Origin: Patescibacteria group bacterium | GTDB taxonomy: Bacteria; Patescibacteriota; Microgenomatia; 0-14-0-10-38-17 | Direction of reading: 5' to 3' | Assembly: GCA_050953885.1 (NCBI GenBank) | Contig: JBMNNJ010000001.1 | Coordinates: 399,437-463,436, forward strand | DNA length: 64,000 bases | Shown: one piece after another, positions 43,736-64,000 of the stretch | How the letters are laid out: each line of letters opens with the position of its first letter | Position numbering within the stretch: position 1 is the first letter of the stretch | The notes under the pieces: generated by a model | Seen by the model: the letters and a program-made list of their open reading frames with translations, nothing else | Told to the model about the DNA's origin: nothing | Database searches by the model: none | Program-made: the position numbers and the translations under genes

Positions 43736-43867
43736 TAAAAACAAAACACAATATAAGGATAAAAAGAAACATGCTAAGCGCTAAGGTCAAATCTCAAATC
43801 TCAAATATCAAAACTCAAAACTACAACTCAATCCGCCGGCTGGCGGACAAGAATAACGATAATCGCA

Positions 43868-43965
43868 CCTGTCATCCTGACGAAAGTCAGGATCTAATTG
43901 ATTCTGAATCAAGTTCAGAATGACACTAATCGTGGTCGTCATTCCTGAATTAAATTCAGGATGAC
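43868..43965. repeat. Family B hairpin repeats (GTCATCCTGAAYTTGATTCAGGATGAC and the TTCTGAATCAAGTTCAGAATGAC variant). This is a cluster of two or three units.
   Basis: Other copies: 34504-34527 (between the comEC halves), 38329-38402 (inside leuS), 39376-39460 and 45038-45170. Confidence 0.8.
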
Positions 43966-44115
43966 GCCATTCGTTCATTCGCGTTCATTCGCTTTTAATT
44001 CGCACATCCCAGCAATATAGCAATGTGTTTCCTAATTTCTTAATTTCAGCCCCGCCAGGGCGGGGCGAATTTCTTAATTTCTTTTTTAGCAATTCAACAA
44101 TATCGCAATTTAACC

Positions 44116-47215: not shown

Positions 47216-47776
47216 ATGACCAACAGAATTATTTTGCCTCACGGCAATTATCGTCAGCTTAAATCGTTCCAAACTACAACAATTATTTACGATTTCACGA
47301 TGGCTTTTTGTAATCAATACCGGTCCCTCCTGACTTACAAGAACTACGAGCAAATGATCGGTGGTGCCAGATCGGGTAAGCAAAATATCGCCGAAGGCAG
47401 TCAGGTTTCTGGCACTTCTAAAAAAACAGAGATAAAACTTACCAGCGTTGCCCGTGGGTCACTTGAAGAATTGCTTCAAGATTGCCTTGATTTTCTTCGC
47501 CAAAACAATCTTGTTTTGTGGGATAAAAACGATCCCCGGGCTATTACCATCCGCAAGATTGCTTATAAGCCTGATCGGTCTTATGAGTCCTACAAGTCCT
47601 ATCTTAAAGACCCGGAAAGCGCCGTCAACTGCCTAATTTGCTTAATTCATCAGGCTAATTTTCTTCTTGACCGTCAGCTTGAAGCTTTAGAAAAAGATTT
47701 TTTAGAAAATGGCGGCTTCACTGAAAGGCTTTATCGGGAAAGAAGCGAAGCAAGAAAAAAGCAAAAATATGACTAA
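47216..47776 (+). CDS. Four-helix-bundle protein (23S rRNA intervening-sequence protein / Avd-like family), long form
   Basis: Family motifs NIAEGS...S and ARGSLEEL in the expected spacing. The stop overlaps the start of the giant gene (ATGACTAA). Confidence 0.55.
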   Translation: MTNRIILPHGNYRQLKSFQTTTIIYDFTMAFCNQYRSLLTYKNYEQMIGGARSGKQNIAEGSQVSGTSKKTEIKLTSVARGSLEELLQDCLDFLRQNNLVLWDKNDPRAITIRKIAYKPDRSYESYKSYLKDPESAVNCLICLIHQANFLLDRQLEALEKDFLENGGFTERLYRERSEARKKQKYD

Positions 47777-50700: not shown

Positions 50701-53700
50701 CCCTGACGGGGGAGCAATACCTCGCCACCTCAAGAGGTGGCACCGGCGATGACACCTCCTCTACCACTGGTGTCCCCTACATTTCTTCCGGCAACTGGCA
50801 ATATGAATCAAGTTTAAATGTGAGCCGGGGCGGCACTGGGTTTTCTTCTTTAGCAGCTGGCTCCCTAATCTACGGTTCCGGCTCCTCCCCAATGAACGCT
50901 TTAGCAATTGGCACTACTAACTATGTTTTAACCTCCAATGGTTCTGCTCCTAACTGGTCACTAATTAGCCAGGCAAATATCAGTCCTGATTCTCTAGACT
51001 TTGACCAATTCCAGGATACCCTAGATCTGGATACTGACTTAGTCTTAAATCAAGCCGCTTACACCTGGACGCAAAACTTTACCGGAGCAACTACTACCGG
51101 CTTAACTTACAACGCTAATGCTTTAACTTCAGGAAAAGGGGTATATGTTTCTTCTACTTCAACTGGTTTAACAGGAAACTTGGCAGAAATAAGTCTGTCG
51201 GGAAACAATGCCGCCAACACCGGTAATGTTTTAAGACTGGCCCAAACTGGCGCCTTATCAGCGGCAATTCCTTTAATGGTGACCAATCTTGGCGCCGGCG
51301 CTTCCTTCAGGGTTAACGATGAAACGGGCGACAATGACAGCACCCCCTTTATTATTGATGCTTCCGGCGCTGTGGGGGTGGGAACAGCCATGCCAAACGC
51401 CTCGGCAATTCTTGATTTAACTTCAACCGCCAAGGGCTTTCTTGCTCCAAGAATGACTACCAGCCAAAGAGATGCTATTGTTAACCCCGCCGCCGGCCTT
51501 TTAATCTATAACACCACCACCAATCAATATAACATGTATAACGGCACGGGCTGGACTCTTATTGGCGGCGGAGATGTTTCTTGGAGTAGCTTAATTGACC
51601 CGACAGAAAATCTCTTGCTAAACCATGGGGCCTACACCACCACCTTTACCTGGGGAGCCTCAACCGGAGCTAATAACCTCTTTACCCTTACCGATACGGC
51701 CAACAATACCGGCACGGGCTACCTTTTAAACCTTAATACCGCCACGGGGTCAAGTCTTAAACCTTTAAGGGTGGCTTCGGCCGGAGTTGAGGCTTTGGCC
51801 ATCGATGCCGCCGGCAATGTGGGGATCGGGACAACGAGCCCGGGAGAAAAGTTGGATGTAGTTGGAGCAATCCGTTCCAGTGGAGTCGATGTATCATCTT
51901 TAAATCCAGGAACAAGCACCACCGGAGGTTTATATTTAGGTGCACATATGGGACACCTTATACTTGACTTAAGAAATAATGATTCCAATGACTCAATTGC
52001 TTTCCGATATTCAGCGGCAAACAACACAGTAGTAGATACTATTGGTCTAGTTATGAAAGGCGGAACTGGCAACGTCGGCATCGGCACCACCAGCCCCGGG
52101 GCAACCTTGGATGTTAACGGCAACTTACGAATTGGCACCCTGACAACAGGCTCCACCGATACCGTCTTAACCCACTCCAACAATATTGTCCAGCAAAGAA
52201 CAATTGATCCCCGGGTTTGGGGGGAAACCTTGGTAGACGGCAGCGGTAGTGCCGGCTATGTGGCCTACTGGCAGGATGCCAATACCCTGACGGGGGAGCA
52301 ATACCTCGCCACCTCAAGAGGTGGCACCGGCGATGACACCTCCTCTACCACTGGTGTCCCCTACATTTCTTCCGGCAACTGGCAATATGAATCAAGTTTA
52401 AATGTGAGCCGGGGCGGCACTGGGTTTTCTTCTTTAGCAGCTGGCTCCCTAATCTACGGTTCCGGCTCCTCCCCAATGAACGCTTTAGCAATTGGCACTA
52501 CTAACTATGTTTTAACCTCCAATGGTTCTGCTCCTAACTGGTCACTAATTAGCCAGGCAAATATCAGTCCTGATTCTCTAGACTTTGACCAATTCCAGGA
52601 TACCCTAGATCTGGATACTGACTTAGTCTTAAATCAAGCCGCTTACACCTGGACGCAAAACTTTACCGGAGCAACTACTACCGGCTTAACTTACAACGCT
52701 AATGCTTTAACTTCAGGAAAAGGGGTATATGTTTCTTCTACTTCAACTGGTTTAACAGGAAACTTGGCAGAAATAAGTCTGTCGGGAAACAATGCCGCCA
52801 ACACCGGTAATGTTTTAAGACTGGCCCAAACTGGCGCCTTATCAGCGGCAATTCCTTTAATGGTGACCAATCTTGGCGCCGGCGCTTCCTTCAGGGTTAA
52901 CGATGAAACGGGCGACAATGACAGCACCCCCTTTATTATTGATGCTTCCGGCGCTGTGGGGGTGGGAACAGCCATGCCAAACGCCTCGGCAATTCTTGAT
53001 TTAACTTCAACCGCCAAGGGCTTTCTTGCTCCAAGAATGACTACCAGCCAAAGAGATGCTATTGTTAACCCCGCCGCCGGCCTTTTAATCTATAACACCA
53101 CCACCAATCAATATAACATGTATAACGGCACGGGCTGGACTCTTATTGGCGGCGGAGATGTTTCTTGGAGTAGCTTAATTGACCCGACAGAAAATCTCTT
53201 GCTAAACCATGGGGCCTACACCACCACCTTTACCTGGGGAGCCTCAACCGGAGCTAATAACCTCTTTACCCTTACCGATACGGCCAACAATACCGGCACG
53301 GGCTACCTTTTAAACCTTAATACCGCCACGGGGTCAAGTCTTAAACCTTTAAGGGTGGCTTCGGCCGGAGTTGAGGCTTTGGCCATCGATGCCGCCGGCA
53401 ATGTGGGGATCGGGACAACGAGCCCGGGAGAAAAGTTGGATGTAGTTGGAGCAATCCGTTCCAGTGGAGTCGATGTATCATCTTTAAATCCAGGAACAAG
53501 CACCACCGGAGGTTTATATTTAGGTGCACATATGGGACACCTTATACTTGACTTAAGAAATAATGATTCCAATGACTCAATTGCTTTCCGATATTCAGCG
53601 GCAAACAACACAGTAGTAGATACTATTGGTCTAGTTATGAAAGGCGGAACTGGCAACGTCGGCATCGGCACCACCAGCCCCGGGGCAACCTTGGATGTTA

Positions 53701-56700
53701 ACGGCAACTTACGAATTGGCACCCTGACAACAGGCTCCACCGATACCGTCTTAACCCACTCCAACAATATTGTCCAGCAAAGAACAATTGATCCCCGGGT
53801 TTGGGGGGAAACCTTGGTAGACGGCAGCGGTAGTGCCGGCTATGTGGCCTACTGGCAGGATGCCAATACCCTGACGGGGGAGCAATACCTCGCCACCTCA
53901 AGAGGTGGCACCGGCGATGACACCTCCTCTACCACTGGTGTCCCCTACATTTCTTCCGGCAACTGGCAATATGAATCAAGTTTAAATGTGAGCCGGGGCG
54001 GCACTGGGTTTTCTTCTTTAGCAGCTGGCTCCCTAATCTACGGTTCCGGCTCCTCCCCAATGAACGCTTTAGCAATTGGCACTACTAACTATGTTTTAAC
54101 CTCCAATGGTTCTGCTCCTAACTGGTCACTAATTAGCCAGGCAAATATCAGTCCTGATTCTCTAGACTTTGACCAATTCCAGGATACCCTAGATCTGGAT
54201 ACTGACTTAGTCTTAAATCAAGCCGCTTACACCTGGACGCAAAACTTTACCGGAGCAACTACTACCGGCTTAACTTACAACGCTAATGCTTTAACTTCAG
54301 GAAAAGGGGTATATGTTTCTTCTACTTCAACTGGTTTAACAGGAAACTTGGCAGAAATAAGTCTGTCGGGAAACAATGCCGCCAACACCGGTAATGTTTT
54401 AAGACTGGCCCAAACTGGCGCCTTATCAGCGGCAATTCCTTTAATGGTGACCAATCTTGGCGCCGGCGCTTCCTTCAGGGTTAACGATGAAACGGGCGAC
54501 AATGACAGCACCCCCTTTATTATTGATGCTTCCGGCGCTGTGGGGGTGGGAACAGCCATGCCAAACGCCTCGGCAATTCTTGATTTAACTTCAACCGCCA
54601 AGGGCTTTCTTGCTCCAAGAATGACTACCAGCCAAAGAGATGCTATTGTTAACCCCGCCGCCGGCCTTTTAATCTATAACACCACCACCAATCAATATAA
54701 CATGTATAACGGCACGGGCTGGACTCTTATTGGCGGCGGAGATGTTTCTTGGAGTAGCTTAATTGACCCGACAGAAAATCTCTTGCTAAACCATGGGGCC
54801 TACACCACCACCTTTACCTGGGGAGCCTCAACCGGAGCTAATAACCTCTTTACCCTTACCGATACGGCCAACAATACCGGCACGGGCTACCTTTTAAACC
54901 TTAATACCGCCACGGGGTCAAGTCTTAAACCTTTAAGGGTGGCTTCGGCCGGAGTTGAGGCTTTGGCCATCGATGCCGCCGGCAATGTGGGGATCGGGAC
55001 AACGAGCCCGGGAGAAAAGTTGGATGTAGTTGGAGCAATCCGTTCCAGTGGAGTCGATGTATCATCTTTAAATCCAGGAACAAGCACCACCGGAGGTTTA
55101 TATTTAGGTGCACATATGGGACACCTTATACTTGACTTAAGAAATAATGATTCCAATGACTCAATTGCTTTCCGATATTCAGCGGCAAACAACACAGTAG
55201 TAGATACTATTGGTCTAGTTATGAAAGGCGGAACTGGCAACGTCGGCATCGGCACCACCAGCCCCGGGGCAACCTTGGATGTTAACGGCAACTTACGAAT
55301 TGGCACCCTGACAACAGGCTCCACCGATACCGTCTTAACCCACTCCAACAATATTGTCCAGCAAAGAACAATTGATCCCCGGGTTTGGGGGGAAACCTTG
55401 GTAGACGGCAGCGGTAGTGCCGGCTATGTGGCCTACTGGCAGGATGCCAATACCCTGACGGGGGAGCAATACCTCGCCACCTCAAGAGGTGGCACCGGCG
55501 ATGACACCTCCTCTACCACTGGTGTCCCCTACATTTCTTCCGGCAACTGGCAATATGAATCAAGTTTAAATGTGAGCCGGGGCGGCACTGGGTTTTCTTC
55601 TTTAGCAGCTGGCTCCCTAATCTACGGTTCCGGCTCCTCCCCAATGAACGCTTTAGCAATTGGCACTACTAACTATGTTTTAACCTCCAATGGTTCTGCT
55701 CCTAACTGGTCACTAATTAGCCAGGCAAATATCAGTCCTGATTCTCTAGACTTTGACCAATTCCAGGATACCCTAGATCTGGATACTGACTTAGTCTTAA
55801 ATCAAGCCGCTTACACCTGGACGCAAAACTTTACCGGAGCAACTACTACCGGCTTAACTTACAACGCTAATGCTTTAACTTCAGGAAAAGGGGTATATGT
55901 TTCTTCTACTTCAACTGGTTTAACAGGAAACTTGGCAGAAATAAGTCTGTCGGGAAACAATGCCGCCAACACCGGTAATGTTTTAAGACTGGCCCAAACT
56001 GGCGCCTTATCAGCGGCAATTCCTTTAATGGTGACCAATCTTGGCGCCGGCGCTTCCTTCAGGGTTAACGATGAAACGGGCGACAATGACAGCACCCCCT
56101 TTATTATTGATGCTTCCGGCGCTGTGGGGGTGGGAACAGCCATGCCAAACGCCTCGGCAATTCTTGATTTAACTTCAACCGCCAAGGGCTTTCTTGCTCC
56201 AAGAATGACTACCAGCCAAAGAGATGCTATTGTTAACCCCGCCGCCGGCCTTTTAATCTATAACACCACCACCAATCAATATAACATGTATAACGGCACG
56301 GGCTGGACTCTTATTGGCGGCGGAGATGTTTCTTGGAGTAGCTTAATTGACCCGACAGAAAATCTCTTGCTAAACCATGGGGCCTACACCACCACCTTTA
56401 CCTGGGGAGCCTCAACCGGAGCTAATAACCTCTTTACCCTTACCGATACGGCCAACAATACCGGCACGGGCTACCTTTTAAACCTTAATACCGCCACGGG
56501 GTCAAGTCTTAAACCTTTAAGGGTGGCTTCGGCCGGAGTTGAGGCTTTGGCCATCGATGCCGCCGGCAATGTGGGAATTGGGACGACGAGTCCGGGGGCA
56601 AAGCTACATGTAAATGCTGGTGCAGCACAATTGACAATGGAAAGAGATGAAACCCACATTAACACATGGGATTTCAGAATCACTCAGGAGGCGGGCATCT

Positions 56701-59700
56701 CTGCAAACTCCCTATACCTGAGAGCGTCAGAAAATACAGCCGACTTTGGAATAAGGGCAGCTAATTCTGGGAACGTCCAGTTCATTTTGAAGGGCCCAAC
56801 AGGCAACGTCGGCATCGGGACGACGGCGCCGGGGGCGAAGCTTGATGTTAACGGAACGGGTAGGTTTGCCACTTCCGTGTCTTCGCCTCTTTTTCAAGGT
56901 GATACCGGGGCGGTTACCTTTGGCAATGCTTCCTATGCCACCACCATTGCCGGTTCAGGATTAACCATCTCTCCTACTGCCTGGACAGCCACTCCTACCA
57001 TATCAGGGCTTATTACCGCTACTTTAGGATTAACCGCCAATGGAGCCTTAACCGCCAACAGCACCTTCACTTTAGGAGACGGCGCTGATGCCGGTTCGGT
57101 TAATACCTCAAGTTGGGATATCTCCACCACTGGCGTCGCCTCGGGATTTACCGGCCTTACTTCCTCCGGCACGATCACCTTCTCTTCTCTGGCCGCCAAC
57201 CGACTGGTGACCACCACCACAGGAGGAGAACTAACCACCAGCGCCGAGGGGACTGTCGGCCAGCCCTTACTTTCCGGAGGGACATCCTCCCCCAACTGGG
57301 GGACTCTTGGTCTGGTTTATGGCGGTACCAATGCCGATCTTTCCGGGGTGGCCCAAGGAGGGCTAATTTACAAGGAAACTTCCGCCTTAGCCGGCACCGG
57401 GGCCTTAACGGGAATTCTTCAGGGAAATAACGCCAGCGCCCCCACCGCCATCACCGGCACCGCCAATTATCTGCCCAAATGGTCCTCAACCGCCCCTTAC
57501 CTCACCACCGCTTCCCAAATTTTCGACAGCGGCGCTAATGTCGGCATTGGCAATAGCAATCCTCAAGCCCTGCTTCATGTGGGCGCCGGCGGCACGCCCA
57601 ATTATGCTTCAAGCGGCGATGTTTATATCCAAAACGATCTCGAAGTGGACGGCACCATTTACGGCGCGCTGGATATTACCGACGCCACTTTTGACTTTTT
57701 GGAAGTTAAGCGGGCGGCCACTTTCTCCGCCCAAATCGCCTCGGATATTCCCATTACCGTTAAAAACACCGGCGGCAATGAGGTGGCGCGGTTCACCAAC
57801 GAGGGCAAGCTAAGACTTGGTTCTGCCGGCGCGCCCACCGACACTTTAGATATTGATGGCGACGCTGATATTTCCGGCAACTTGGATGTGGGCAATGGCC
57901 TTGATGTTTTAGGCGCCAACTTCACCGTCGGCGGCGCTAACTTTACCGTTAGCCAAGCCGGCACGGTGACCGGCGGCACCTACAACGGCCAAACTATTTC
58001 CTCCACTGCCAGCTTTACCGGCACTCTTAGCGTCGCTTCAACCTTCAACGCTAATAGCAATGTGGGCTTGGGAAACGAAGCCACCGACACCATCAACGCC
58101 GCCGGGCAATTTGTCTCCGGCCTTATCCCCCAAACAAACAGTTATAACCTTGGCTCCCCCACTAACCACTGGGGCGCTTTGTACGTTGATTCCATTTACG
58201 GCGGTCAGGTGGGCGAATTTGACTTTCTTAAGGCCCGGGGCGCCACCCTCTCGGCCGAAATCCCCACCGACAAAACCTTGGTTTTGGAAGGCCTTGCTTC
58301 CGGCCATACCGCCAATTTAATTGAAGCCAACGCCAACGGCGCCACCGCTCTCACCCTCTCCCCGGCCGGCAATTTAACCTTAGGAGGAACGATAACTTTA
58401 CCCAACGGTAACACCTTAACCGGCGTGGCTTCTTATATTCAATTTAACAATGGCATAAGCGTTGGCGGGGGAACCACCTATCGGCTCACCTCCACTGGCG
58501 ACGCATATCTTAATAATCTCTACACCGGCGGAACGCAAAGGCTTTCTTCAACCGGCGCCCTTGCCAACATTACCGACTACAGCCAATCCTCCGGCAATTT
58601 CGCCATTTCGGGAACTGGCACTTTCTCTACCGCCACCGGCAATATCTCCCTAAATGGAGCCACCACCGTAGCCGACGGCAAATCTTTCACCGCCAACGGG
58701 CCGGTGACCTTGGGCGACGGGGGCGATGCGGTGGCCATTAACAGCAACATTTGGGATATTACCTCGGCCGGCGTCGCTTCCGGCTTAACCCAATTAACCG
58801 TTGACAACCTCCAGCTTGACGGCAACACTCTTTCTTCAACCACGGACAACATTACTCTTGACGCCGCCGCTTACTTGGTGATTGCCGACCAAATTGCCTC
58901 AAGCTTAATTCCTTCCGCCACCAACACTTATGATTTGGGCTCCCCGGAGAACTACTGGGACGATGCTTACATCAACACTTTAACCGCTAATTCGCTAAAT
59001 TTTGATTTTATCGCCGCCCGCGGCGCCACTTTTTCGGCCGAAATCCCCACCGACAAAACCTTGGTTCTTAATGCCGCTACCGGCCAAACCGCCAATCTTT
59101 TGGAAATCAATTCCGCCCCCGGCGCCAGCGGCGACTTAATGGTGGTCACCGGCGGCGGCAATGTCGGCATTGGCAACAGCAATCCGGGAACATATAAATT
59201 AGATGTGGCGGGCACGGGAAGATTTAATTCCACCGCTAATCCGGGGTTAACGGTTGGCAACGGCGCTATTGGCTATTTAAAAATTGGCGGCTCAACTATT
59301 TATGATAACAACAGCGACTTAACTTTAGACTCCGATACTGCCTTGGTGATTTTAGCCGATGATTTGCAAATTAACGGCAATGATATTTATGATTCCGGCG
59401 CAAACCAGAGAATCAATTTGGGCGCCACCACCACTTTATACAACACCACCACCATCCTTTCGGGCACCACCGCCTTAACCGCCTCTTCCTTGGCAACCTT
59501 TACCACCGCCTCCTCTTTGGCAATGCCCGCCACCACCTCTTTAACCTTAGGCGGTTCAGCAACCATCTACGGCGGCACGACGGCTTCAGGAACACTAACT
59601 CTTCAGTCAACTTCAAACGCCACCAAAGGCAATATCCTAATTAATCCTTCTGGCGGCAATGTCGGCATCGGGACGACGGGGCCGGGGGCGAAATTATCTA

Positions 59701-62700
59701 TTAATGGCTCGCCAGCGATAGAGTTTGCTTCTTGCGGGACTTCTTACGGAGGTTGTTATATCAAGGAAGGATGGGGCCCTGAATTATATTCCAATACATC
59801 GCAACCTTTTCAAGTTTTAAATACTTCACTTTTGGTTGGATATGACCAAACAGATTCAACCGCCAGAGGAAGCGGTAATTTACTCGTAAGCGGCAATGTC
59901 GGCATCGGGACGACGGGGCCGAACACTGAACTAAGTTTAAATCACGGTTATATAAATTTTGAGCCCTCGCTAACCTCGTGGCTAAAAACTGGAGGAGAAG
60001 GAATACTTATGTGGAACTCTAATGATATTGAGTGGCTCGAATCAACATACGAGAGCGGATACGGCCACAGATTATATTCCATCGATCCTGGGGCAGGTGC
60101 AGTTACACACCTTCGGCTAGCCGCAAGAAATAACTCTGCCTCGTGGACAGATATGGTTACTTTTGTTTCTAACGGCAACGTCGGCATCGGGACGACGGGG
60201 CCACAACATAAATTACATATTTATACGACAACCGCACAAGAGGGAATAATTATTAACGCTGGCACTTATCCAGAAATCAGATTTGAAGAGGCTGGAACAG
60301 TAAGAGGCTATCTTAGCGTTGCTGGAAGCGCAGGAGGATATGGAACAGGCACATTAGCTGATTCTATGATACTTCGCGCTGAAGGTAATATGCATCTTAT
60401 TACGAATGCAGGGACTGTGGTACAAACATTAACCAGTGGCGGCAATGTGGGCATTGGGACAACAACTCCGGGGGCAAGACTGGATGTTAACGGCAATTTA
60501 AAAATCGCCACCCTGACAACCGGCGCCACCAATACGGTTTTAACCCACAGCGGCAATATTGTCCAGCAAAGAACCATTGATTCCCGAGTTTGGGGATCAG
60601 CGTTGGTTGATTATTCCGGCACCTCGGCTAACTACATTCCCAAAATGCTTGACGCCGACACGATTACCAATTCCCTAATTTACGAAGCCGCCAGCAGCCG
60701 CCGCATCGGCATTAGCACCACCAGCCCGGGTTCAAAATTAACCGTTGCCGGCGGCGCTTCCTATTTTGGCGCCCTGCCTGCCCCCACCGGAGTAGTGGCC
60801 ACTCCCACCTCGGGAGGCGGCTTAGTGGCGGGAACTTACTATTATGTGGTCAACGCCTTTGACAGCAACAACCTTTCCTCAAACAAATCAAGCCAGGTTT
60901 CCTGCACGGTTGATGGCTCTACCACCACCGCCTGCCAAATTTCCTGGGTGGCCGTTCCCGGCGCCACCAACTACCGCGTTTACGGCAGAGCCAGCAACGC
61001 CCAAAACCAATACTGGCAAACCACTTCTCTCTACTACACCGACACCGGCGCCGCCGGCGCCAGCGACACGCCGCCGGGACCAATCTCCGCTTTCTTTACC
61101 GGCAATATAAAAGCGGAACGCTTTGCGGATTCGGCTAACGACACCTACTACCTTGATCCGGCCTATGCCACTCTTTCCCTCACCACCGCCGGAGCGGCGG
61201 GCATCGGCTACTCGGCCGGCCAGATGAGCGGTGCCACCGCCAAGCTGGCCGTTGACGGCAATGTGGGAATTGGGACGACGAGTCCGGGGGCAAAGCTACA
61301 TGTAAATGCTGGTGCAGCACAATTGACAATGGAAAGAGATGAAACCCACATTAACACATGGGATTTCAGAATCACTCAGGAGGCGGGCATCTCTGCAAAC
61401 TCCCTATACCTGAGAGCGTCAGAAAATACAGCCGACTTTGGAATAAGGGCAGCTAATTCTGGGAACGTCCAGTTCATTTTGAAGGGCCCAACAGGCAACG
61501 TCGGCATCGGGACAGTTTTCGGCGAAGCAGATACTACAGGAAAATTGAACGTAAGAAAAGATAGCACAGCAGATGGAATGATTAGCGATGTTCTTACGTT
61601 GCGCAATCATTGGCATACCGTTACTAATATAGGAACTGGAATTGCATTGAGATTTAAACAAGGATCAACCAGCGAAACCGGAAAGCTTGTTGATATTGGT
61701 TCAATTGCTGAAAGTGGGTGGAGCAACGCAGTCGGTTTCTTTGTTAAGACTGGTGGTACTGAAAGGTTAAGAATAAGTAACGGCGGCAACGTCGGCATCG
61801 GGACAGCGAGTCCAAGTTACCCACTACACGTATATAAAAATGCAGGTGACTGGACGGCGCGCTTCCAAAACACTTCGGGATCCATAGATATTGGACCAGC
61901 CAATGGTAGTGGAGCCCACATTTATACAGACCTAAGCCAATTTTTCTTTAATCAACCCATTACCCTCACGGGCACCAGCAGTATTTCTTCTTATTCCACG
62001 AATAATCTCTATCTTAAAACAGGTACGCAGGCTAACACAAGGATGACAATTCTTGCTAGTAATGGCAATGTCGGCATCGGGACGACGGGGCCTGTTCAAA
62101 AATTGCATGTTGAAGGCAATTGTGTAACGGGAGATACAAAGTTAGCAATTTTTGAGGATCACAGTTCACAGTTCACAGTTCACAGCAATGCTCCTTCAGA
62201 GCAGATCACAGATCACAGATCACAGTTCACGGAAATACAAATAAAGGATATAAAATCAGGAACAAAAGTATATTCGCTAAATCAAGAAACTGGGAAACTA
62301 GAACCTGCTAGGATCAACAAACTTCTTGACATGGGAACAAAGCCTGTATTTAAATTAACTACAGAGGGTGGAAAAGAGATTCGCACCACTGGCAACCACC
62401 CATATCTTGCCCAACTATCTTATGAACAATACCAGCAAAGAGTTCAACTTCGAGAAACTGGAAGTTTGGAAGAAGAGTATGGCCTTAGTCAAGGCGATCT
62501 ATCAGTTGCTCGAGAGTTTTCCCAAACACGAGAGGTATGGTCTAGTGGATCAACTTCGCCGAGCAGCAACCTCAATTCTTCTGAATATCGCCGAGGGGAA
62601 CGGGAGGTACAGCCACAAGGAATTTATCCAATTTCTCTATCAGGCCAGGGGCAGTCTCTACGAGGTGGTGGCTTGTCTCAAACTAACTCAAGAGCTGGGT

Positions 62701-64000
62701 TACTTAACTCAGCAACAGATTACTCCTCTACTCCAACAGACTCACGAGATCAACAGGATGCTCTCGGGGCTGATCAATTATCTCAAGAAGAAAGCTGGCA
62801 AAGCCAGCTAAATCACGGTTCACCGTTCACGGATCACAGATGGGTGAAGGTGATTTATTTATCTCCAGGTGACTCTATTGCTACCGCTTCTTTCTGTGAA
62901 CCAAGAACAGTGAACGGTGAACCACGAGCCGAAGGCGAGTATAACTCCCGTGAACTACGATCTGTGAACTGTGAACCATACGTTGTTTGGGACAAAATCG
63001 TTTCCATCGAGTATGTTGGCTATGAGCAGGTCTATGACATAGAGGTTGAGGGCACGCATAACTTTGTTGCTAATGGAATTTTGGCCCATAACACGTATAT
63101 TAGCGGCAATGTCGGCATCGGGACGACGAGTCCGGGGTACAAACTAGACGTAAATGGAACACTAAACGCCACATCAATCTATGAGAACGGAACACCGCTC
63201 TCTAACAGTTATAGCAACGTTGTTTATAAATATGGGCCAACAGGTTTAAATGGAGCGGCCACTAGTGATTTTGGATTAAGAATTACTCACTCAACTGGTG
63301 ATACCAGTCACGCTGACCATGGTTCTTATTTAGTTAACATTAAAAGCAGGTACATTGATGAAACGTGGCTTTTCTACTTAGCATCTGAATATCTCGGGGC
63401 ATACAAGTATAATATAGAGCGGGTGGGTGGGCATACGAACAGCGTTACCGCAGTACTGGTAACAAATACTAGTACGAGTTTTCAATTAGAACTGCAAACA
63501 TCAGGATCACAAAATGACTGGCATAGCGTAACGGTCACTAGAGTTGGGTATTCTCAGTCCGGTAATCCAACGTTTAGTTACATTGATTCCACAGCATTTA
63601 GTGCTGGTACTACTGTTGGTAGGAAATCTTGGATTGGGAATAACAATGGTGGAACAAGTACTTACTATAGCGGCAACGTCGGCATCGGGACGACGAGTCC
63701 AGGGTATACACTACATGTTAACGGCACGGCCAATATCGGCTCTTCTTTATACGTTGCCGGCAACCAACGCTTTAATTCCTCCGGCGCTCTTATTCCCCAT
63801 ACCGTTTCTTCAACCACTAAATTTACTAACCTTAACGCCGATATGGTTGACGGTTATAGCTACTCCTCCTCTTGGCCAAATGCCTCAAATACTGTCCTGC
63901 GTTCAGGCTCCACTACAAACTACATACCAAAATGGAGCGGAACCTATACCCTAACTAATTCAATTATCTACGATAACGGCACCAATGTCGGCATCGGGAC
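47769..64000 (+). CDS. Giant tail-fibre-like repeat surface protein, more than 5,400 codons in the window and still open at the window end
   Basis: The frame of 47769 (positions divisible by 3) has no listed stop to 64000. Hand translation of several long stretches confirmed it is open. N-terminal integrase-CB-like module (IQAYLKRLKKEGASPATLKRKEAALKKFQSW), a TM anchor (FLIGLVLLASLGWGVY), then modules with the GNVGIGTTxPxxKL(D/H)VNG motif. Also LAPRMTTSQRDAIVNPAAGLLIYNTTTNQYNMYNGTGW, and an FN3 segment (YYYVVNAFDSNN...ISWVAVPGATNYRVYG). All ORF-track entries in this span are in other frames or antisense. Confidence 0.85.
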   Translation, partial: MTNRTNRTNNRTNSAGFLEPLQIQAYLKRLKKEGASPATLKRKEAALKKFQSWQGKEYGPKYPLPKGAPKPKKIISKKGIFPKAFPPFLRYFSFLIGLVLLASLGWGVYSQFFAQPKETPSMAFPTNPPLLISFQGQLTDDDGTPINATIPAIFRLYNVDEGGTALWEEQKNVSTDQDGIFNTFLGDTATLDPAIFRDNMNLWLAIEIDNDGEMEPRQQIATVGYAFNSRYLQGYEATTAATANTIPVINADGDLILASSSPAIEATSGTFGLKGEAITIQSTGGTGGGDILIQPDADTQGQVIIYSATTADNSFTVQNSNITTGSLIYGEAGTSASGYNLLKLTSGSLLTDKFVVDYAGNTDIAGNLTVDSSGFFGNSVGIGTTSPGATLDVNGNLRIGTLTTGSTDTVLTHSNNIVQQRTIDPRVWGETLVDGSGSAGYVAYWQDANTLTGEQYLATSRGGTGDDTSSTTGVPYISSGNWQYESSLNVSRGGTGFSSLAAGSLIYGSGSSPMNALAIGTTNYVLTSNGSAPNWSLISQANISPDSLDFDQFQDTLDLDTDLVLNQAAYTWTQNFTGATTTGLTYNANALTSGKGVYVSSTSTGLTGNLAEISLSGNNAANTGNVLRLAQTGALSAAIPLMVTNLGAGASFRVNDETGDNDSTPFIIDASGAVGVGTAMPNASAILDLTSTAKGFLAPRMTTSQRDAIVNPAAGLLIYNTTTNQYNMYNGTGWTLIGGGDVSWSSLIDPTENLLLNHGAYTTTFTWGASTGANNLFTLTDTANNTGTGYLLNLNTATGSSLKPLRVASAGVEALAIDAAGNVGIGTTSPGEKLDVVGAIRSSGVDVSSLNPGTSTTGGLYLGAHMGHLILDLRNNDSNDSIAFRYSAANNTVVDTIGLVMKGGTGNVGIGTTSPGATLDVNGNLRIGTLTTGSTDTVLTHSNNIVQQRTIDPRVWGETLVDGSGSAGYVAYWQDANTLTGEQYLATSRGGTGDDTSSTTGVPYISSGNWQYESSLNVSRGGTGFSSLAAGSLIYGSGSSPMNALAIGTTNYVLTSNGSAPNWSLISQANISPDSLDFDQFQDTLDLDTDLVLNQAAYTWTQNFTGATTTGLTYNANALTSGKGVYVSSTSTGLTGNLAEISLSGNNAANTGNVLRLAQTGALSAAIPLMVTNLGAGASFRVNDETGDNDSTPFIIDASGAVGVGTAMPNASAILDLTSTAKGFLAPRMTTSQRDAIVNPAAGLLIYNTTTNQYNMYNGTGWTLIGGGDVSWSSLIDPTENLLLNHGAYTTTFTWGASTGANNLFTLTDTANNTGTGYLLNLNTATGSSLKPLRVASAGVEALAIDAAGNVGIGTTSPGEKLDVVGAIRSSGVDVSSLNPGTSTTGGLYLGAHMGHLILDLRNNDSNDSIAFRYSAANNTVVDTIGLVMKGGTGNVGIGTTSPGATLDVNGNLRIGTLTTGSTDTVLTHSNNIVQQRTIDPRVWGETLVDGSGSAGYVAYWQDANTLTGEQYLATSRGGTGDDTSSTTGVPYISSGNWQYESSLNVSRGGTGFSSLAAGSLIYGSGSSPMNALAIGTTNYVLTSNGSAPNWSLISQANISPDSLDFDQFQDTLDLDTDLVLNQAAYTWTQNFTGATTTGLTYNANALTSGKGVYVSSTSTGLTGNLAEISLSGNNAANTGNVLRLAQTGALSAAIPLMVTNLGAGASFRVNDETGDNDSTPFIIDASGAVGVGTAMPNASAILDLTSTAKGFLAPRMTTSQRDAIVNPAAGLLIYNTTTNQYNMYNGTGWTLIGGGDVSWSSLIDPTENLLLNHGAYTTTFTWGASTGANNLFTLTDTANNTGTGYLLNLNTATGSSLKPLRVASAGVEALAIDAAGNVGIGTTSPGEKLDVVGAIRSSGVDVSSLNPGTSTTGGLYLGAHMGHLILDLRNNDSNDSIAFRYSAANNTVVDTIGLVMKGGTGNVGIGTTSPGATLDVNGNLRIGTLTTGSTDTVLTHSNNIVQQRTIDPRVWGETLVDGSGSAGYVAYWQDANTLTGEQYLATSRGGTGDDTSSTTGVPYISSGNWQYESSLNVSRGGTGFSSLAAGSLIYGSGSSPMNALAIGTTNYVLTSNGSAPNWSLISQANISPDSLDFDQFQDTLDLDTDLVLNQAAYTWTQNFTGATTTGLTYNANALTSGKGVYVSSTSTGLTGNLAEISLSGNNAANTGNVLRLAQTGALSAAIPLMVTNLGAGASFRVNDETGDNDSTPFIIDASGAVGVGTAMPNASAILDLTSTAKGFLAPRMTTSQRDAIVNPAAGLLIYNTTTNQYNMYNGTGWTLIGGGDVSWSSLIDPTENLLLNHGAYTTTFTWGASTGANNLFTLTDTANNTGTGYLLNLNTATGSSLKPLRVASAGVEALAIDAAGNVGIGTTSPGEKLDVVGAIRSSGVDVSSLNPGTSTTGGLYLGAHMGHLILDLRNNDSNDSIAFRYSAANNTVVDTIGLVMKGGTGNVGIGTTSPGATLDVNGNLRIGTLTTGSTDTVLTHSNNIVQQRTIDPRVWGETLVDGSGSAGYVAYWQDANTLTGEQYLATSRGGTGDDTSSTTGVPYISSGNWQYESSLNVSRGGTGFSSLAAGSLIYGSGSSPMNALAIGTTNYVLTSNGSAPNWSLISQANISPDSLDFDQFQDTLDLDTDLVLNQAAYTWTQNFTGATTTGLTYNANALTSGKGVYVSSTSTGLTGNLAEISLSGNNAANTGNVLRLAQTGALSAAIPLMVTNLGAGASFRVNDETGDNDSTPFIIDASGAVGVGTAMPNASAILDLTSTAKGFLAPRMTTSQRDAIVNPAAGLLIYNTTTNQYNMYNGTGWTLIGGGDVSWSSLIDPTENLLLNHGAYTTTFTWGASTGANNLFTLTDTANNTGTGYLLNLNTATGSSLKPLRVASAGVEALAIDAAGNVGIGTTSPGAKLHVNAGAAQLTMERDETHINTWDFRITQEAGISANSLYLRASENTADFGIRAANSGNVQFILKGPTGNVGIGTTAPGAKLDVNGTGRFATSVSSPLFQGDTGAVTFGNASYATTIAGSGLTISPTAWTATPTISGLITATLGLTANGALTANSTFTLGDGADAGSVNTSSWDISTTGVASGFTGLTSSGTITFSSLAANRLVTTTTGGELTTSAEGTVGQPLLSGGTSSPNWGTLGLVYGGTNADLSGVAQGGLIYKETSALAGTGALTGILQGNNASAPTAITGTANYLPKWSSTAPYLTTASQIFDSGANVGIGNSNPQALLHVGAGGTPNYASSGDVYIQNDLEVDGTIYGALDITDATFDFLEVKRAATFSAQIASDIPITVKNTGGNEVARFTNEGKLRLGSAGAPTDTLDIDGDADISGNLDVGNGLDVLGANFTVGGANFTVSQAGTVTGGTYNGQTISSTASFTGTLSVASTFNANSNVGLGNEATDTINAAGQFVSGLIPQTNSYNLGSPTNHWGALYVDSIYGGQVGEFDFLKARGATLSAEIPTDKTLVLEGLASGHTANLIEANANGATALTLSPAGNLTLGGTITLPNGNTLTGVASYIQFNNGISVGGGTTYRLTSTGDAYLNNLYTGGTQRLSSTGALANITDYSQSSGNFAISGTGTFSTATGNISLNGATTVADGKSFTANGPVTLGDGGDAVAINSNIWDITSAGVASGLTQLTVDNLQLDGNTLSSTTDNITLDAAAYLVIADQIASSLIPSATNTYDLGSPENYWDDAYINTLTANSLNFDFIAARGATFSAEIPTDKTLVLNAATGQTANLLEINSAPGASGDLMVVTGGGNVGIGNSNPGTYKLDVAGTGRFNSTANPGLTVGNGAIGYLKIGGSTIYDNNSDLTLDSDTALVILADDLQINGNDIYDSGANQRINLGATTTLYNTTTILSGTTALTASSLATFTTASSLAMPATTSLTLGGSATIYGGTTASGTLTLQSTSNATKGNILINPSGGNVGIGTTGPGAKLSINGSPAIEFASCGTSYGGCYIKEGWGPELYSNTSQPFQVLNTSLLVGYDQTDSTARGSGNLLVSGNVGIGTTGPNTELSLNHGYINFEPSLTSWLKTGGEGILMWNSNDIEWLESTYESGYGHRLYSIDPGAGAVTHLRLAARNNSASWTDMVTFVSNGNVGIGTTGPQHKLHIYTTTAQEGIIINAGTYPEIRFEEAGTVRGYLSVAGSAGGYGTGTLADSMILRAEGNMHLITNAGTVVQTLTSGGNVGIGTTTPGARLDVNGNLKIATLTTGATNTVLTHSGNIVQQRTIDSRVWGSALVDYSGTSANYIPKMLDADTITNSLIYEAASSRRIGISTTSPGSKLTVAGGASYFGALPAPTGVVATPTSGGGLVAGTYYYVVNAFDSNNLSSNKSSQVSCTVDGSTTTACQISWVAVPGATNYRVYGRASNAQNQYWQTTSLYYTDTGAAGASDTPPGPISAFFTGNIKAERFADSANDTYYLDPAYATLSLTTAGAAGIGYSAGQMSGATAKLAVDGNVGIGTTSPGAKLHVNAGAAQLTMERDETHINTWDFRITQEAGISANSLYLRASENTADFGIRAANSGNVQFILKGPTGNVGIGTVFGEADTTGKLNVRKDSTADGMISDVLTLRNHWHTVTNIGTGIALRFKQGSTSETGKLVDIGSIAESGWSNAVGFFVKTGGTERLRISNGGNVGIGTASPSYPLHVYKNAGDWTARFQNTSGSIDIGPANGSGAHIYTDLSQFFFNQPITLTGTSSISSYSTNNLYLKTGTQANTRMTILASNGNVGIGTTGPVQKLHVEGNCVTGDTKLAIFEDHSSQFTVHSNAPSEQITDHRSQFTEIQIKDIKSGTKVYSLNQETGKLEPARINKLLDMGTKPVFKLTTEGGKEIRTTGNHPYLAQLSYEQYQQRVQLRETGSLEEEYGLSQGDLSVAREFSQTREVWSSGSTSPSSNLNSSEYRRGEREVQPQGIYPISLSGQGQSLRGGGLSQTNSRAGLLNSATDYSSTPTDSRDQQDALGADQLSQEESWQSQLNHGSPFTDHRWVKVIYLSPGDSIATASFCEPRTVNGEPRAEGEYNSRELRSVNCEPYVVWDKIVSIEYVGYEQVYDIEVEGTHNFVANGILAHNTYISGNVGIGTTSPGYKLDVNGTLNATSIYENGTPLSNSYSNVVYKYGPTGLNGAATSDFGLRITHSTGDTSHADHGSYLVNIKSRYIDETWLFYLASEYLGAYKYNIERVGGHTNSVTAVLVTNTSTSFQLELQTSGSQNDWHSVTVTRVGYSQSGNPTFSYIDSTAFSAGTTVGRKSWIGNNNGGTSTYYSGNVGIGTTSPGYTLHVNGTANIGSSLYVAGNQRFNSSGALIPHTVSSTTKFTNLNADMVDGYSYSSSWPNASNTVLRSGSTTNYIPKWSGTYTLTNSIIYDNGTNVGIG
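48906..56575 (+). repeat. Perfect tandem array of five 1,584-bp coding units (528 aa each; the fifth is ~0.84 of a unit) inside the giant gene
   Basis: Unit starts at 48906, 50490, 52074, 53658 and 55242. The ORF-track antisense ORFs recur with an exact 1,584-bp period and identical sequences. Sequence diverges at about 56575. Confidence 0.9.
56558..56820 (+). repeat. Copy 1 of an exact ~252-bp duplication inside the giant gene. Copy 2 is at 61255-61507.
   Basis: By eye, identical from ggcaatgtgggaattgggacgacgagtccgggggcaaagctacatg ... to ggcaacgtcggcatcggga in both places. Confidence 0.85.
62157..62990 (+). repeat. Heptamer (TTCACAG/CTGTGAA) direct and inverted repeat blocks that bracket the intein interior and the nested four-helix-bundle ORF
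   Basis: Left block 62157-62231 (cacagttcacagttcacagttcacag...cacagatcacagatcacagttcacgg). Right blocks 62811-62843 (direct), 62893-62923 and 62949-62978 (inverted: ctgtgaactgtgaacc). These allow a long-range stem L/R3 and a local hairpin R1/R2. Confidence 0.7.
62422..62811 (+). CDS. Four-helix-bundle protein (23S rRNA intervening-sequence protein / Avd-like family) encoded in the +1 frame inside the intein
   Basis: The ORF-track ORF 62368..62811 contains a near-canonical family sequence: [83 protein letters not shown]. The likely start is MNNTSKEF at 62422. It sits where an intein homing endonuclease would be. Confidence 0.8.
   Translation: [129 protein letters not shown]

What the first reader, a model, noticed from the sequence alone, without database searches (positions are those of the whole stretch)
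62157..62990. Heptamer direct and inverted repeats (TTCACAG / CTGTGAA) bracket the insertion that carries the four-helix-bundle gene
The left block (62157-62231) holds three or more tandem cacagtt and cacagat heptamers. Downstream of the four-helix-bundle ORF stop there is a direct copy (62811-62843) and two inverted copies (62893-62923 and 62949-62978). These can form a local hairpin just after the ORF and a long-range stem that encloses ~800 nt. Four-helix-bundle genes of this family classically sit in the loops of 23S rRNA intervening sequences, whose long stems are RNase III substrates. This looks like an IVS-like or MITE-like mobile module that has landed inside a protein-coding gene. Within the intein, these repeats are translated as FTVHSSQFTVH and DHRSQFT insertions.
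Basis: seen in the sequence. Interest (0 to 1): 0.7.

Follow-up and report, generated by a model that had tools for sequence, protein, structure and literature searches.

The report
Hairpin-armed four-helix-bundle gene nested in intein
A small four-helix-bundle gene of the kind usually found in ribosomal-RNA intervening sequences sits inside a protein intron (intein) of a giant bacterial surface-protein gene, enclosed by complementary 7-base repeat arrays that keep pairing while their sequence changes between related genomes; similar arrays flank most of the 80 relatives of this gene that I sampled across many phyla.

Summary
There are five TCACRGW heptamer arrays: a, b and c are direct, d and e are inverted. 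All lie within 62157-62978 and nowhere else in the window. They sit inside a 324-aa DnaB-type mini-intein (62121-63092) that interrupts a giant ORF. A four-helix-bundle (4HB, PF05635/TIGR02436) gene (62422-62811) lies in the +1 frame, and the intein frame stays open across it.

The arrays do not tightly bracket one insertion. Conserved intein sequence lies between the arms and the 4HB gene. The arms occupy separate loops of the Hint fold.

Orthologous inteins from four other assemblies carry arms at the same two positions. Their heptamers differ (TTCACAG, CGAAGNT, GGAAGTG, GTTCAAG). In the three with both arms on the contig, the arms are mutually complementary and fold into a 22-28 bp long-range stem.

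Of 77 sampled 4HB homologues from many phyla, 49 have a period-7 array upstream, 56 downstream and 44 both. Where both are present the units tend to be complementary. These genes are almost always co-oriented with their neighbours.

My best reading is an IVS-type, RNase III-style stem-loop cassette living in an intein "safe harbour". The RNA-level mechanism is inferred, not shown. A DNA-level role is not excluded.

The parts
47706..64000 (+). Host gene. A giant ORF, open from 47706 and running off the window end, with 21 G[NK][VL]GIG motifs. The N-extein ends ...KLHVEGN at 62120. The C-extein starts with Thr at 63093 (TYISGNVGIGTTSPG...).
   Evidence: Translation; in-frame stop and motif scan; 1584-nt internal tandem repeats.
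62121..63092 (+). DnaB-type mini-intein of 324 codons. It has Cys1 (CVTGDT), block B (TTGNHPYL), blocks F/G ([21 protein letters not shown]) and a +1 Thr.
   Evidence: Pfam Intein_splicing 3.6e-22; TIGR01445 and TIGR01443. Closest solved structures are the Npu and Ssp DnaB mini-inteins, 2.8e-20. In the AF2 model the Hint strands have pLDDT 67-87 and the inserted segments are below 55.
62157..62189 (+). Arm a: (TCACAGT) x3.9, a direct heptamer array translated as DHSSQFTVHS. It is the outer left arm and pairs with e.
   Evidence: a:e 24 Watson-Crick pairs, -37.0 kcal/mol.
62204..62236 (+). Arm b: (CAGATCA) x4.1, a direct heptamer array 88% identical to a and offset by 47 nt. It is translated as DHRSQFT and is the preferred partner of e in the ensemble.
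   Evidence: 19.1 expected bp with e; -39.4 kcal/mol.
62422..62811 (+). Four-helix-bundle gene of 129 aa plus stop, in the +1 frame relative to the intein. It lies between intein block B and the WVKV block. The intein frame is stop-free across it.
   Evidence: PF05635 2.8e-41, TIGR02436 3.1e-40. It is 79% identical to a Roizmanbacteria protein. Frame test: 4/4 intein-embedded copies are open against 0/78 other homologues.
62811..62843 (+). Arm c: a direct heptamer array (AATCACGGTTCACCGTTCACGGATCACAG) that starts at the last base of the 4HB stop codon. It pairs locally with d. It is present only in the window allele.
   Evidence: 22.9 expected bp with d; -39.2 kcal/mol. Absent from L001, L003 and L004.
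62841..62891 (+). Conserved intein block WVKVIYLSPGDSIATAS, enclosed by the c:d hairpin.
   Evidence: Conserved in all orthologues and in 4HB-less relatives.
62893..62923 (+). Arm d: an inverted heptamer array (CTGTGAA-type). The second unit is degenerate (CCAAGAA), so no TGA falls in the intein frame.
   Evidence: A perfect (CTGTGAA)n has TGA in every frame.
62949..62978 (+). Arm e: an inverted heptamer array (CGTGAACTACGATCTGTGAACTGTGAAC) that abuts the codons for PYVVWDKI (block F). It is the conserved right arm of the long-range stem.
   Evidence: The same position, and nearly the same sequence, in L001, L002 and L083. The same position with a different sequence in L003 and L004.

Best explanation
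What it is. This is an IVS-type four-helix-bundle cassette: a 4HB gene enclosed by a long stem made of two complementary tandem-heptamer arrays. It is nested inside a DnaB-type mini-intein of a giant surface-protein gene from a candidate-phyla-radiation (Patescibacteria) bacterium.

Shown:
- The arms sit in loops of the Hint fold that tolerate insertions.
- The 4HB ORF overlaps, in the +1 frame, an intein linker whose own frame is kept free of stops.
- The arms keep their positions and their complementarity in orthologues while their sequence turns over.
- Complementary heptamer arrays flank most of the 80 sampled 4HB genes. Those genes lie in the sense orientation inside host transcription units.

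Inferred:
- The host transcript folds so that the left arm(s) (a/b) pair with the right arm (e) over about 750-800 nt. In this allele c pairs with d next to the 4HB stop codon.
- As in 23S rRNA intervening sequences, this double-stranded stem is a processing or stability signal, most likely an RNase III substrate. It would liberate or delimit the 4HB message, which is then translated from its own start codon.
- Transcripts that escape cleavage are translated straight through. Protein splicing then removes the peptide encoded by the arms and by the overlapped 4HB region, so the host protein is unharmed.
- The intein therefore acts as a safe harbour for the cassette, much as rRNA helices do.
For: Local anatomy and pairing.

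Orthologues. L001, L003, L004 and L086 are orthologues at the same extein site (..KLHVEG[NQ]|C.TGD ... ILAHN|TY.SGNVGIGTT); L083 shows only the 3' part, with the same C-extein junction. Arms lie at the same two positions but with different heptamers. Each pair is complementary (24-31 Watson-Crick bp, -37 to -48 kcal/mol). L:R pairing dominates the ensemble, with 22-27.5 expected bp.

Open intein frame. It is open over the 4HB gene in 4/4 intein copies against 0/78 other homologues (Fisher 6e-7).

Translation constraint. The right arms are interrupted at the unit where a perfect (CTGTGAA)n would put TGA in frame.

Arms go with the gene. The 4HB-less relatives of the intein, L207 and L084, lack arms.

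Family-wide pattern. A period-7 array lies within 150 nt upstream in 49/77 loci, downstream in 56/77 and on both sides in 44/77. Background is 0.056 per 150 bp. Other periods are near zero. Arm complementarity exceeds the 99th percentile of displaced controls in 43/71 loci. Units are complementary in register.

Orientation. The 4HB gene is co-oriented with its upstream neighbour in 61/66 loci and its downstream neighbour in 55/65. This is what an element that depends on read-through transcription would show.

Literature. In the Coxiella 23S IVS, tandem heptamers precede the S23p ORF and the 5' RNase III cut maps to the first repeat (PMC4990558).

Independent translation. L086 has a GGAGG Shine-Dalgarno 7 nt before the 4HB start codon, embedded in the intein frame.
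Against: - Mismatches in the arms of 46 cassettes show no excess of G:U over A:C on the sense strand (71 vs 103). Sense-strand duplexes are no more stable than antisense ones. The classic signature of selection on a sense RNA helix is therefore missing, and DNA-level maintenance is equally compatible.
- RNase III cleavage inside a coding mRNA would destroy the host message.
- The window's 4HB start codon has no visible Shine-Dalgarno or promoter.
- How the arms came to lie in different loops from the ORF is unexplained.
- No transcript, cleavage or splicing data exist for this organism.
- The structure model is only moderately confident (mean pLDDT 55.8).
Confidence: 0.5

Rival explanations
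1. DNA-level element. The heptamer arrays are terminal inverted repeats, or cruciform or hairpin-forming DNA, of a mobile or duplicative 4HB cassette. Their complementarity is kept by DNA processes such as template switching that corrects quasi-palindromes, gene conversion, or slippage within arrays. It is not kept by selection on an RNA helix.
For: - There is no G:U-over-A:C asymmetry (71 vs 103), and duplex stability is symmetric between strands.
- The whole cassette including its arms is duplicated at two different sites in one Atribacterota MAG.
- Heptamer identity tracks 4HB protein identity across phyla: 74% of pairs at 80% identity or more share a unit within 1 mismatch, against 2% of pairs below 45%.
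- ORF-less heptamer hairpins are common in the window's intergenic regions. Convergent heptamer-array pairs are known in Xanthomonas (PMC4692102).
- In the window, extra arms arose by local duplication (a to b at 47 nt, e to d at 54 nt). Arm c carries an exact 14-mer complement of d.
Against: - No transposase or nuclease is associated with the cassette.
- The strong sense co-orientation with neighbouring genes is not expected for a purely DNA-level element.
- In the intein the arms are not contiguous with the ORF, so the unit cannot have inserted as one piece.
- The arms persist, under coding constraint, in vertically related copies whose sequence has turned over completely. Dead terminal repeats would be expected to decay.
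Confidence: 0.25
2. Protein-binding lattice. Each 7-bp unit is a binding site for the 4HB protein, a homologue of the nucleic-acid-binding DGR protein Avd. The arrays would then serve autoregulation or packaging of the cassette's own RNA or DNA. This could coexist with either explanation above.
For: - The strict 7-nt periodicity holds whatever the sequence.
- Heptamer sequence co-varies with 4HB subfamily.
- A TCAC/GTGA core recurs in many unrelated arrays.
- There is weak homology to Avd (PF22296 3.7e-08, NF033474 1.4e-10, both below their cut-offs).
Against: - No binding data exist.
- ORF-less heptamer hairpins and solitary arrays are abundant. TCACAGW arrays in metagenomes are near a 4HB gene in only 2 of 120 loci.
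- Arrays are heterogeneous even within a single arm.
Confidence: 0.12
3. Contingency locus. Slipped-strand mispairing of the perfect 4-unit array a would shift the frame of the giant surface-protein gene by 7 nt and switch its C-terminal part on or off.
For: - Array a is a perfect 7-nt repeat inside a coding frame.
- The number of heptamers varies between Coxiella strains (PMC4990558).
Against: - It does not explain the complementary partner arrays, their conservation, or the association with 4HB genes, most of which lie in non-coding spacers.
- Four units is a short tract.
- No length variants of this locus were seen.
Confidence: 0.06

Closest known systems
23S (and 16S) rRNA intervening sequences carrying an S23p / 23S_rRNA_IVP ORF (Leptospira, Coxiella, Xanthomonas, CPR rRNA insertions)
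   Same: - The same protein family (PF05635/TIGR02436).
- The ORF sits in the loop of a long stem formed by complementary flanks.
- The ORF is in the sense orientation of the host transcript.
- In Coxiella, tandem heptamers precede the ORF and the 5' RNase III cut maps to the first repeat (PMC4990558).
- The element sits where the host can dispose of it after synthesis.
   Different: - The host is a protein-coding gene, not rRNA.
- Disposal would be by protein splicing, not RNA excision.
- The arms and the ORF are themselves translated in the host frame, giving dual coding with stop avoidance.
- The arms are 650-900 nt apart and separated from the ORF by essential intein segments.
Inteins with a nested homing-endonuclease gene, and DnaB-type mini-inteins
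   Same: - A Hint fold with blocks A, B, F and G intact.
- A foreign gene nested in a permissive region.
- The closest solved relatives are the Npu and Ssp DnaB mini-inteins.
   Different: - The nested gene is not a nuclease.
- It is read in a different frame from the intein, as a free-standing ORF.
- It lies between block B and the following W.K...L..GD block rather than at the canonical endonuclease site.
- Complementary repeat arrays accompany it.
Bacterial tandem heptamer repeats: cyanobacterial STRR, Beggiatoaceae TAACTGA repeats, Xanthomonas GGGAATC arrays
   Same: - Tandem 7-nt units, often several variants mixed.
- They are frequently intergenic and sometimes occur as convergent pairs able to form stem-loops (PMC4692102).
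- Their function is unknown, with proposed post-transcriptional roles (PMC4679880).
   Different: - Neither of the two papers I checked mentions the 4HB gene family (term searches).
- Here the arrays are paired around a specific gene family, and the pairing is conserved through sequence turnover.
MITEs and other inverted-repeat elements
   Same: - Inverted terminal arrays.
- Multiple copies, and ORF-less versions in the same genome (window intergenic hairpins).
   Different: - The element carries an ORF.
- The arms are periodic arrays of variable sequence.
- No target-site duplication or cognate transposase was identified.
- In the intein the arms are not contiguous with the cargo.
Avd of diversity-generating retroelements
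   Same: A four-helix-bundle fold family with weak profile similarity.
   Different: - Scores are below the Avd model cut-offs (41 vs 80 bits).
- For >14 kb upstream and about 1 kb downstream (to the window end) the sequence is the giant host ORF; I made no search for reverse transcriptase or template/variable repeats.

Membership tests
PF05635 / TIGR02436 four-helix-bundle (23S rRNA IVS protein) family | Profile score above the curated cut-off over the full domain | tested here: met
   PF05635 140.4 bits (cut-off 33.8), residues 11-116 on profile positions 1-106. TIGR02436 136.8 bits (cut-off 24).
Intein (Hint domain, class 1) | Splicing blocks and catalytic residues: Cys1, block B T..H, penultimate His, terminal Asn, and a +1 Cys/Ser/Thr | tested here: met
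   CVTGDT..., TTGNHPYL...ILAHN|T. Pfam Intein_splicing 79.3 bits (cut-off 35.8). TIGR01445 and TIGR01443 are above their cut-offs.
Intein (Hint domain, class 1) | Actual protein splicing | not testable with these tools
   Indirect only. The open frame is maintained across the insertions in 4/4 orthologues, and the Hint strands are modelled with pLDDT 67-87.
rRNA intervening sequence (IVS) | Located in an rRNA gene (23S helix 25/45 or 16S) | tested here: not met
   The window has no rRNA (Rfam gathering scan). The element lies in a protein-coding ORF.
rRNA intervening sequence (IVS) | Complementary flanks that form a long stem around the ORF | tested here: met
   Conserved with covariation in orthologues.
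rRNA intervening sequence (IVS) | Excision by RNase III | not testable with these tools
   By analogy only, from PMC4990558.
MITE | A short non-coding element with contiguous terminal inverted repeats and target-site duplication | tested here: not met
   The element carries an ORF. The arms are separated from the ORF by conserved intein segments. Target-site duplications were not looked for.
Homing endonuclease gene nested in an intein | A LAGLIDADG, HNH or GIY-YIG domain in frame with the intein | tested here: not met
   The only Pfam hit of the intein-frame protein is Intein_splicing. The nested ORF is a 4HB gene in another frame.
DGR accessory protein Avd | Score above the NF033474 / PF22296 cut-offs | tested here: not met
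   NF033474 41.4 bits (cut-off 80). PF22296 34.2 bits (cut-off 40). An adjacent reverse transcriptase or TR/VR pair was not searched for; for >14 kb upstream and about 1 kb downstream (to the window end) the sequence is the giant host ORF.

The most novel reading that the evidence does not exclude
The 4HB gene plus its complementary heptamer-array arms may be a widespread and so far unrecognised class of selfish cassette. It would live in the sense orientation inside host transcripts. It would persist wherever the host can dispose of it after synthesis: rRNA helices (as IVS), operon spacers, and here inteins.

On this reading the 7-nt periodicity reflects a lattice bound by the 4HB oligomer. 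Inteins of CPR giant surface proteins would act as safe harbours that accumulate nested elements while their reading frame is kept open. The nested elements seen here are 4HB genes, minus-strand tRNA-like genes and GTCATCCTGA-type hairpins.
Probability: 0.3. Interest if true: 0.85.

Novelty: new variant of a known kind. Interest (0 to 1): 0.74.

Why it matters
**An old puzzle.** The 23S-IVS four-helix-bundle proteins are very common and have had no known function for some 30 years. The over-representation of heptamer repeats in bacteria is also unexplained. This locus, and the survey it prompted, tie the two together: the gene usually sits in a hairpin built from complementary heptamer arrays, in the sense orientation of host operons.

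**A natural experiment.** In the intein-nested copies the arms must also encode protein, yet pairing survives complete sequence turnover. That makes the function of the arms directly testable, for example by RNase III cleavage, 4HB binding or splicing assays.

**Three further points:**
- An intein can host a non-nuclease gene in an overlapping frame.
- The stretch is a clear example of selected dual coding.
- Automatic annotation misses or fragments these genes. In the Roizmanbacteria orthologue contig L001 (2,830 nt) only the 4HB gene was called and the host ORF was not.

Tried and rejected
- **RNAduplex on 330-nt flanks as a pairing metric.** It did not discriminate, because long inputs always give large energies. 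I replaced it with local alignment against controls.
- **A strict lag-7 self-match criterion.** It under-detected arrays. I used TRF-based counts instead.
- **Alignment A1 for locus retrieval.** I used the 6-sequence A2.
- **Metagenome scan for TCACAGW x3.** It returned 120 loci, mostly solitary arrays in unrelated contexts. Only 2 had a 4HB gene and none was a further intein allele. This particular heptamer is therefore not diagnostic, and I could not search the rest of the source genome.
- **G:U versus A:C mismatch test and sense versus antisense duplex energies.** Neither gave the hoped-for support for a sense-strand RNA helix.
- **Promoter and terminator scan of 61900-63200.** Nothing above shuffled expectation on the + strand.
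- **Look-up of P0002.** Not on record.
- **L002.** It looks like a chimeric low-coverage contig joined inside the conserved KEFIQFLYQARGSL core. I used only its right half.
- **Literature searches.** I found no description of 4HB genes in inteins and no general link between 4HB genes and heptamers. The only trace is the Coxiella note.
- **"Simple MITE insertion".** Rejected, because conserved Hint segments lie between the arms and the ORF.
- **"Assembly artefact".** Rejected, because the same architecture recurs in independent assemblies.
Full report
**1. What is at the coordinates**

The region lies inside a giant ORF on the + strand. The ORF is open from 47706 and runs past the window end. 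It carries 21 G[NK][VL]GIG motifs and 1584-nt internal tandem repeats.

At 62121 the ORF is interrupted by a 324-codon intein:
- It starts with Cys1 (CVTGDTKLA).
- Block B is TTGNHPYL.
- A WVKVIYLSPGDSIATAS block follows.
- Blocks F/G are [38 protein letters not shown].
- The +1 extein residue is Thr at 63093.

Pfam Intein_splicing scores 3.6e-22, and both TIGR intein-end models are above their cut-offs. The closest solved structures are the Npu and Ssp DnaB mini-inteins. Query residues 38-102 and 283-324 align to them. The segments that fail to align are the ones discussed below.

A 129-aa ORF (ATG 62422, stop 62809-62811) lies in the +1 frame. It is a full-length PF05635/TIGR02436 four-helix-bundle (4HB) protein (2.8e-41 and 3.1e-40).

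**2.

TRF and the repeat finder recover five heptamer arrays:

| Arm | Coordinates | Orientation | Notes |
|---|---|---|---|
| a | 62157-62189 | direct | TCACAGT x3.9, perfect |
| b | 62204-62236 | direct | CAGATCA x4.1 |
| c | 62811-62843 | direct | starts at the last base of the 4HB stop codon |
| d | 62893-62923 | inverted | CTGTGAA-type |
| e | 62949-62978 | inverted | CTGTGAA-type |

The motif TCACRGWTCACRG (up to 1 mismatch) occurs 10 times, all here, against 0.08 expected.

Folding 62140-63000 gives z = -5.3. In the partition function c pairs with d (22.9 expected bp). Arm e pairs with b (19.1 expected bp) or a (5.0 expected bp). Arm duplexes have 24-30 pairs, almost all Watson-Crick, at -37 to -39 kcal/mol.

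**3. The arms do not bracket one insertion**

- Arms a and b lie in the loop after block A.
- The 4HB ORF lies between block B and the WVKV block.
- Arms d and e lie at the canonical linker (endonuclease) site just before block F.
- About 185 nt of conserved Hint coding sequence separates b from the ATG.
- The conserved WVKV block lies between c and d.

An AlphaFold model is only moderately confident (mean pLDDT 55.8). It gives pLDDT 67-87 for the Hint strands (residues 36-95 and 287-324). The arm-encoded and 4HB-overlapped segments score below 55. This is consistent with insertions in permissive loops.

**4. Orthologues show the architecture is conserved and the arms covary**

The closest 4HB proteins (64-79% identity) come from Patescibacteria. 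Their contigs carry the same intein at the same extein site (..KLHVEG[NQ]|C.TGD ... ILAHN|TY.SGNVGIGTT). In each, the 4HB gene is in the +1 frame and the intein frame is open.

| Locus | Left arm | Right arm | Expected L:R bp |
|---|---|---|---|
| Window | (TCACAGT)n, arms a/b | CTGTGAA-type, arm e | 19.1 (b:e) + 5.0 (a:e) |
| L001 | (ACAGTTC) x4.6 | CTGTGAACTACGATCTGTGAACTGTGAAC | 27.5 |
| L083 | contig starts inside the 4HB gene, not seen | CTGTGAA-type | – |
| L003 | GAAGATCGAAGTTCGAAGAGCGAAGTTC | GATCTTCGCTCTTCGAACTCCGAACC | 22.1 |
| L004 | GGAAGTGGAGAGTGGAGAGTGGGAAGTGGAGG | CCCACTTTCCACTTCCCACTTACCACC | 26.4 |
| L086 | (GTTCAAG) x4 | contig ends, not seen | – |

L086 also has a GGAGG Shine-Dalgarno 7 nt before its 4HB start codon.

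In every case the left arm lies about 30-45 nt after the Cys1 codon, and the right arm abuts the codons for PYVVWDKI. L:R pairing dominates the predicted ensemble in all the complete orthologues, at -37 to -48 kcal/mol. The encoded peptides are not conserved (DHSSQFTVHS, EVSEDRSSKSEV, EVESGEWEVEEE). What is conserved is position and complementarity.

Relatives of the intein that lack a 4HB gene also lack heptamer arms. These are L207 from a Pacebacteria contig and L084.

**5. Dual coding is selected**

The intein frame, which is +2 relative to the 4HB frame, is stop-free across the 4HB gene in the window, L001, L003 and L004. It is stop-free in none of 78 non-intein homologues (Fisher p = 6e-7).

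(TTCACAG)n is open in all three frames. A perfect (CTGTGAA)n contains TGA in every frame. Arms d and e are degenerate at the unit where that stop would fall (CCAAGAA in d, CTACGAT in e). The arms are therefore under two constraints at once: to pair and to be translated.

**6. The pattern is general for this gene family**

I analysed 80 loci from GTDB species representatives. They encode homologues 42-72% identical to the query. They come from Bacteroidota, Omnitrophota, Nitrospirota, Campylobacterota, Atribacterota, Planctomycetota, ANME archaea, CPR and others.

- Of the 77 loci with at least 150 nt of flank on both sides, 49 have a TRF period-7 array within 150 nt upstream, 56 within 150 nt downstream and 44 on both sides.
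- Background in the same loci is 0.056 arrays per 150 bp. Periods 5-12 other than 7 are nearly absent next to the gene.
- Upstream and downstream units are reverse complements in register. The minimum Hamming distance is 0-1 in 22 of 44 loci, against 18 of 440 for mismatched loci.
- Arm alignment scores exceed the 99th percentile of displaced same-locus controls in 43 of 71 loci.
- Typically the left arm ends about 15-45 nt before the start codon and the right arm starts 0-40 nt after the stop.
- Heptamer identity tracks 4HB identity.
- In one Atribacterota MAG the whole cassette, arms included, occurs at two different sites.
- L109 is a canonical intergenic cassette with GTTCACA-type arms of about 26 units.

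**7. RNA or DNA?**

For RNA:
- The 4HB gene is co-oriented with the nearest upstream ORF in 61 of 66 loci (p = 3e-13) and with the downstream ORF in 55 of 65. This is expected if the cassette depends on read-through host transcription, as in rRNA IVSs.
- In Coxiella, tandem GACAGAT heptamers precede the S23p ORF. Their number varies between strains. The RNase III 5' cut maps to the first repeat (PMC4990558).

Against RNA, or for DNA:
- Arm mismatches show G:U 71 against A:C 103.
- Antisense duplexes are as stable as sense ones, or more so. The wobble signature of a sense RNA helix is absent.

I therefore commit to the IVS-like RNA stem at about 0.5. I keep DNA-level maintenance or mobility at about 0.25.

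**8. What remains unexplained**

- It is unclear how the arms and the ORF came to occupy three different loops. A single insertion cannot do it.
- In the window, the arms have multiplied locally (a to b at 47 nt, e to d at 54 nt). Arm c carries an exact 14-mer complement of d (GGTTCACCGTTCAC / GTGAACGGTGAACC). The arms are therefore dynamic.
- The window's 4HB start codon has no visible Shine-Dalgarno or promoter.

**9. Comparison with known systems, and novelty**

- The protein and the stem-around-ORF design match rRNA IVSs. The location (a protein gene), the disposal route (protein splicing) and the translated arms do not.
- Inteins normally nest in-frame homing endonucleases, not an out-of-frame 4HB gene.
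- Heptamer repeats (STRR, TAACTGA, GGGAATC) are known but unexplained. Neither of the two papers I checked mentions this gene family.
- Literature searches found no description of 4HB genes in inteins, and no general 4HB-heptamer rule.

I rate this a new variant of a known kind. The family-wide rule is possibly the more important by-product.

Noticed in passing
window 47216-47776 (+), with 46721-47203 and 47706 onward: There is a second 4HB-family gene here. It encodes 186 aa and matches TIGR02436 (28 bits) and the TIGR04258 four-helix-bundle suffix domain (78 bits). It sits between a 160-aa ORF with two integrase SAM-like domains and the start of the giant ORF. The giant ORF's first ~100 residues carry another SAM-like remnant and then a hydrophobic stretch that looks like a transmembrane segment. 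It looks as if this gene splits the 5' end of the same giant gene. Inverted 9-mer arrays (47574-47605 and 47764-47806) bracket its suffix domain.
   Followed up: partly
window 1605-1860, 3825-3955, 11765-11935, 26285-26402, 28885-29000, 39200-39570, 43783-43850: The intergenic regions are full of ORF-less hairpins built from A/T-rich heptamer arrays (TCAAAAT / TTGAGTT types). They often have an ATCCGCCAGCTGGCGGAT palindrome at the tip. Five of the eight fold strongly (z -4.7 to -10.2; for example 1605-1860, -81.6 kcal/mol, z = -10); the other three give z -2.0 to -3.9. Several share sequence, for example 1650-1720 with 11790-11860. They look like ORF-less counterparts of the 4HB cassette arms.
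   Followed up: partly
window 3978-4019, 29014-29055, 39588-39627, 43968-43992, 41583-41627: Tandem decamers of the type CATTCGTGTC / TATTCGTTTC recur next to the heptamer hairpins and close to gene ends or starts. Their function is unknown.
   Followed up: no
L001 818-1050; L083 110-320; L207 3460-3540: In some alleles of the same intein family there is an extra segment between the 4HB gene (or block B) and the W.KV block. On the minus strand it holds a tRNA-like gene. ARAGORN calls it tRNA-Asp at L083 242-315, and Rfam gives a sub-threshold match to the tmRNA tRNA-like domain. In L001 and L083 it comes with a terminator-like hairpin. The intein frame still stays open through it.
   Followed up: partly
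L207 2840-2890; window 39365-39470 and 43860-43965: A GTCATCCTGA(GG/CA)...GAAGGATC-type small hairpin repeat occurs in window intergenic regions. In L207 it is also inserted in frame in the loop after intein block A (..SVAVILRSGATKDP..). This is another structured element tolerated inside this intein family.
   Followed up: no
L002 1270-1310 and about 1500: The ENA contig (coverage 1.2) appears chimeric. A GC-rich trxB-like gene and the 5' half of a different 4HB gene, preceded by CGTGAAA heptamers, are joined inside the conserved KEFIQFLYQARGSL core to the 3' half of the intein-borne 4HB. It is either an assembly chimera or real recombination at the conserved core.
   Followed up: no
window 50121-56517: The giant ORF contains five tandem copies of a 1584-nt unit. 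TRF picks up the same 30-nt sub-repeat every 1584 nt.
   Followed up: no
L001 (PEVA01000126), called genes: On the 2,830-nt contig of the Roizmanbacteria orthologue only the 4HB gene was called. The host ORF that spans the 4HB gene and most of the contig was not called. The window's own 4HB protein had no identical entry among the protein-search hits (best 79% identity). Nested, overlapping genes like this are likely to be systematically mis-annotated.
   Followed up: no
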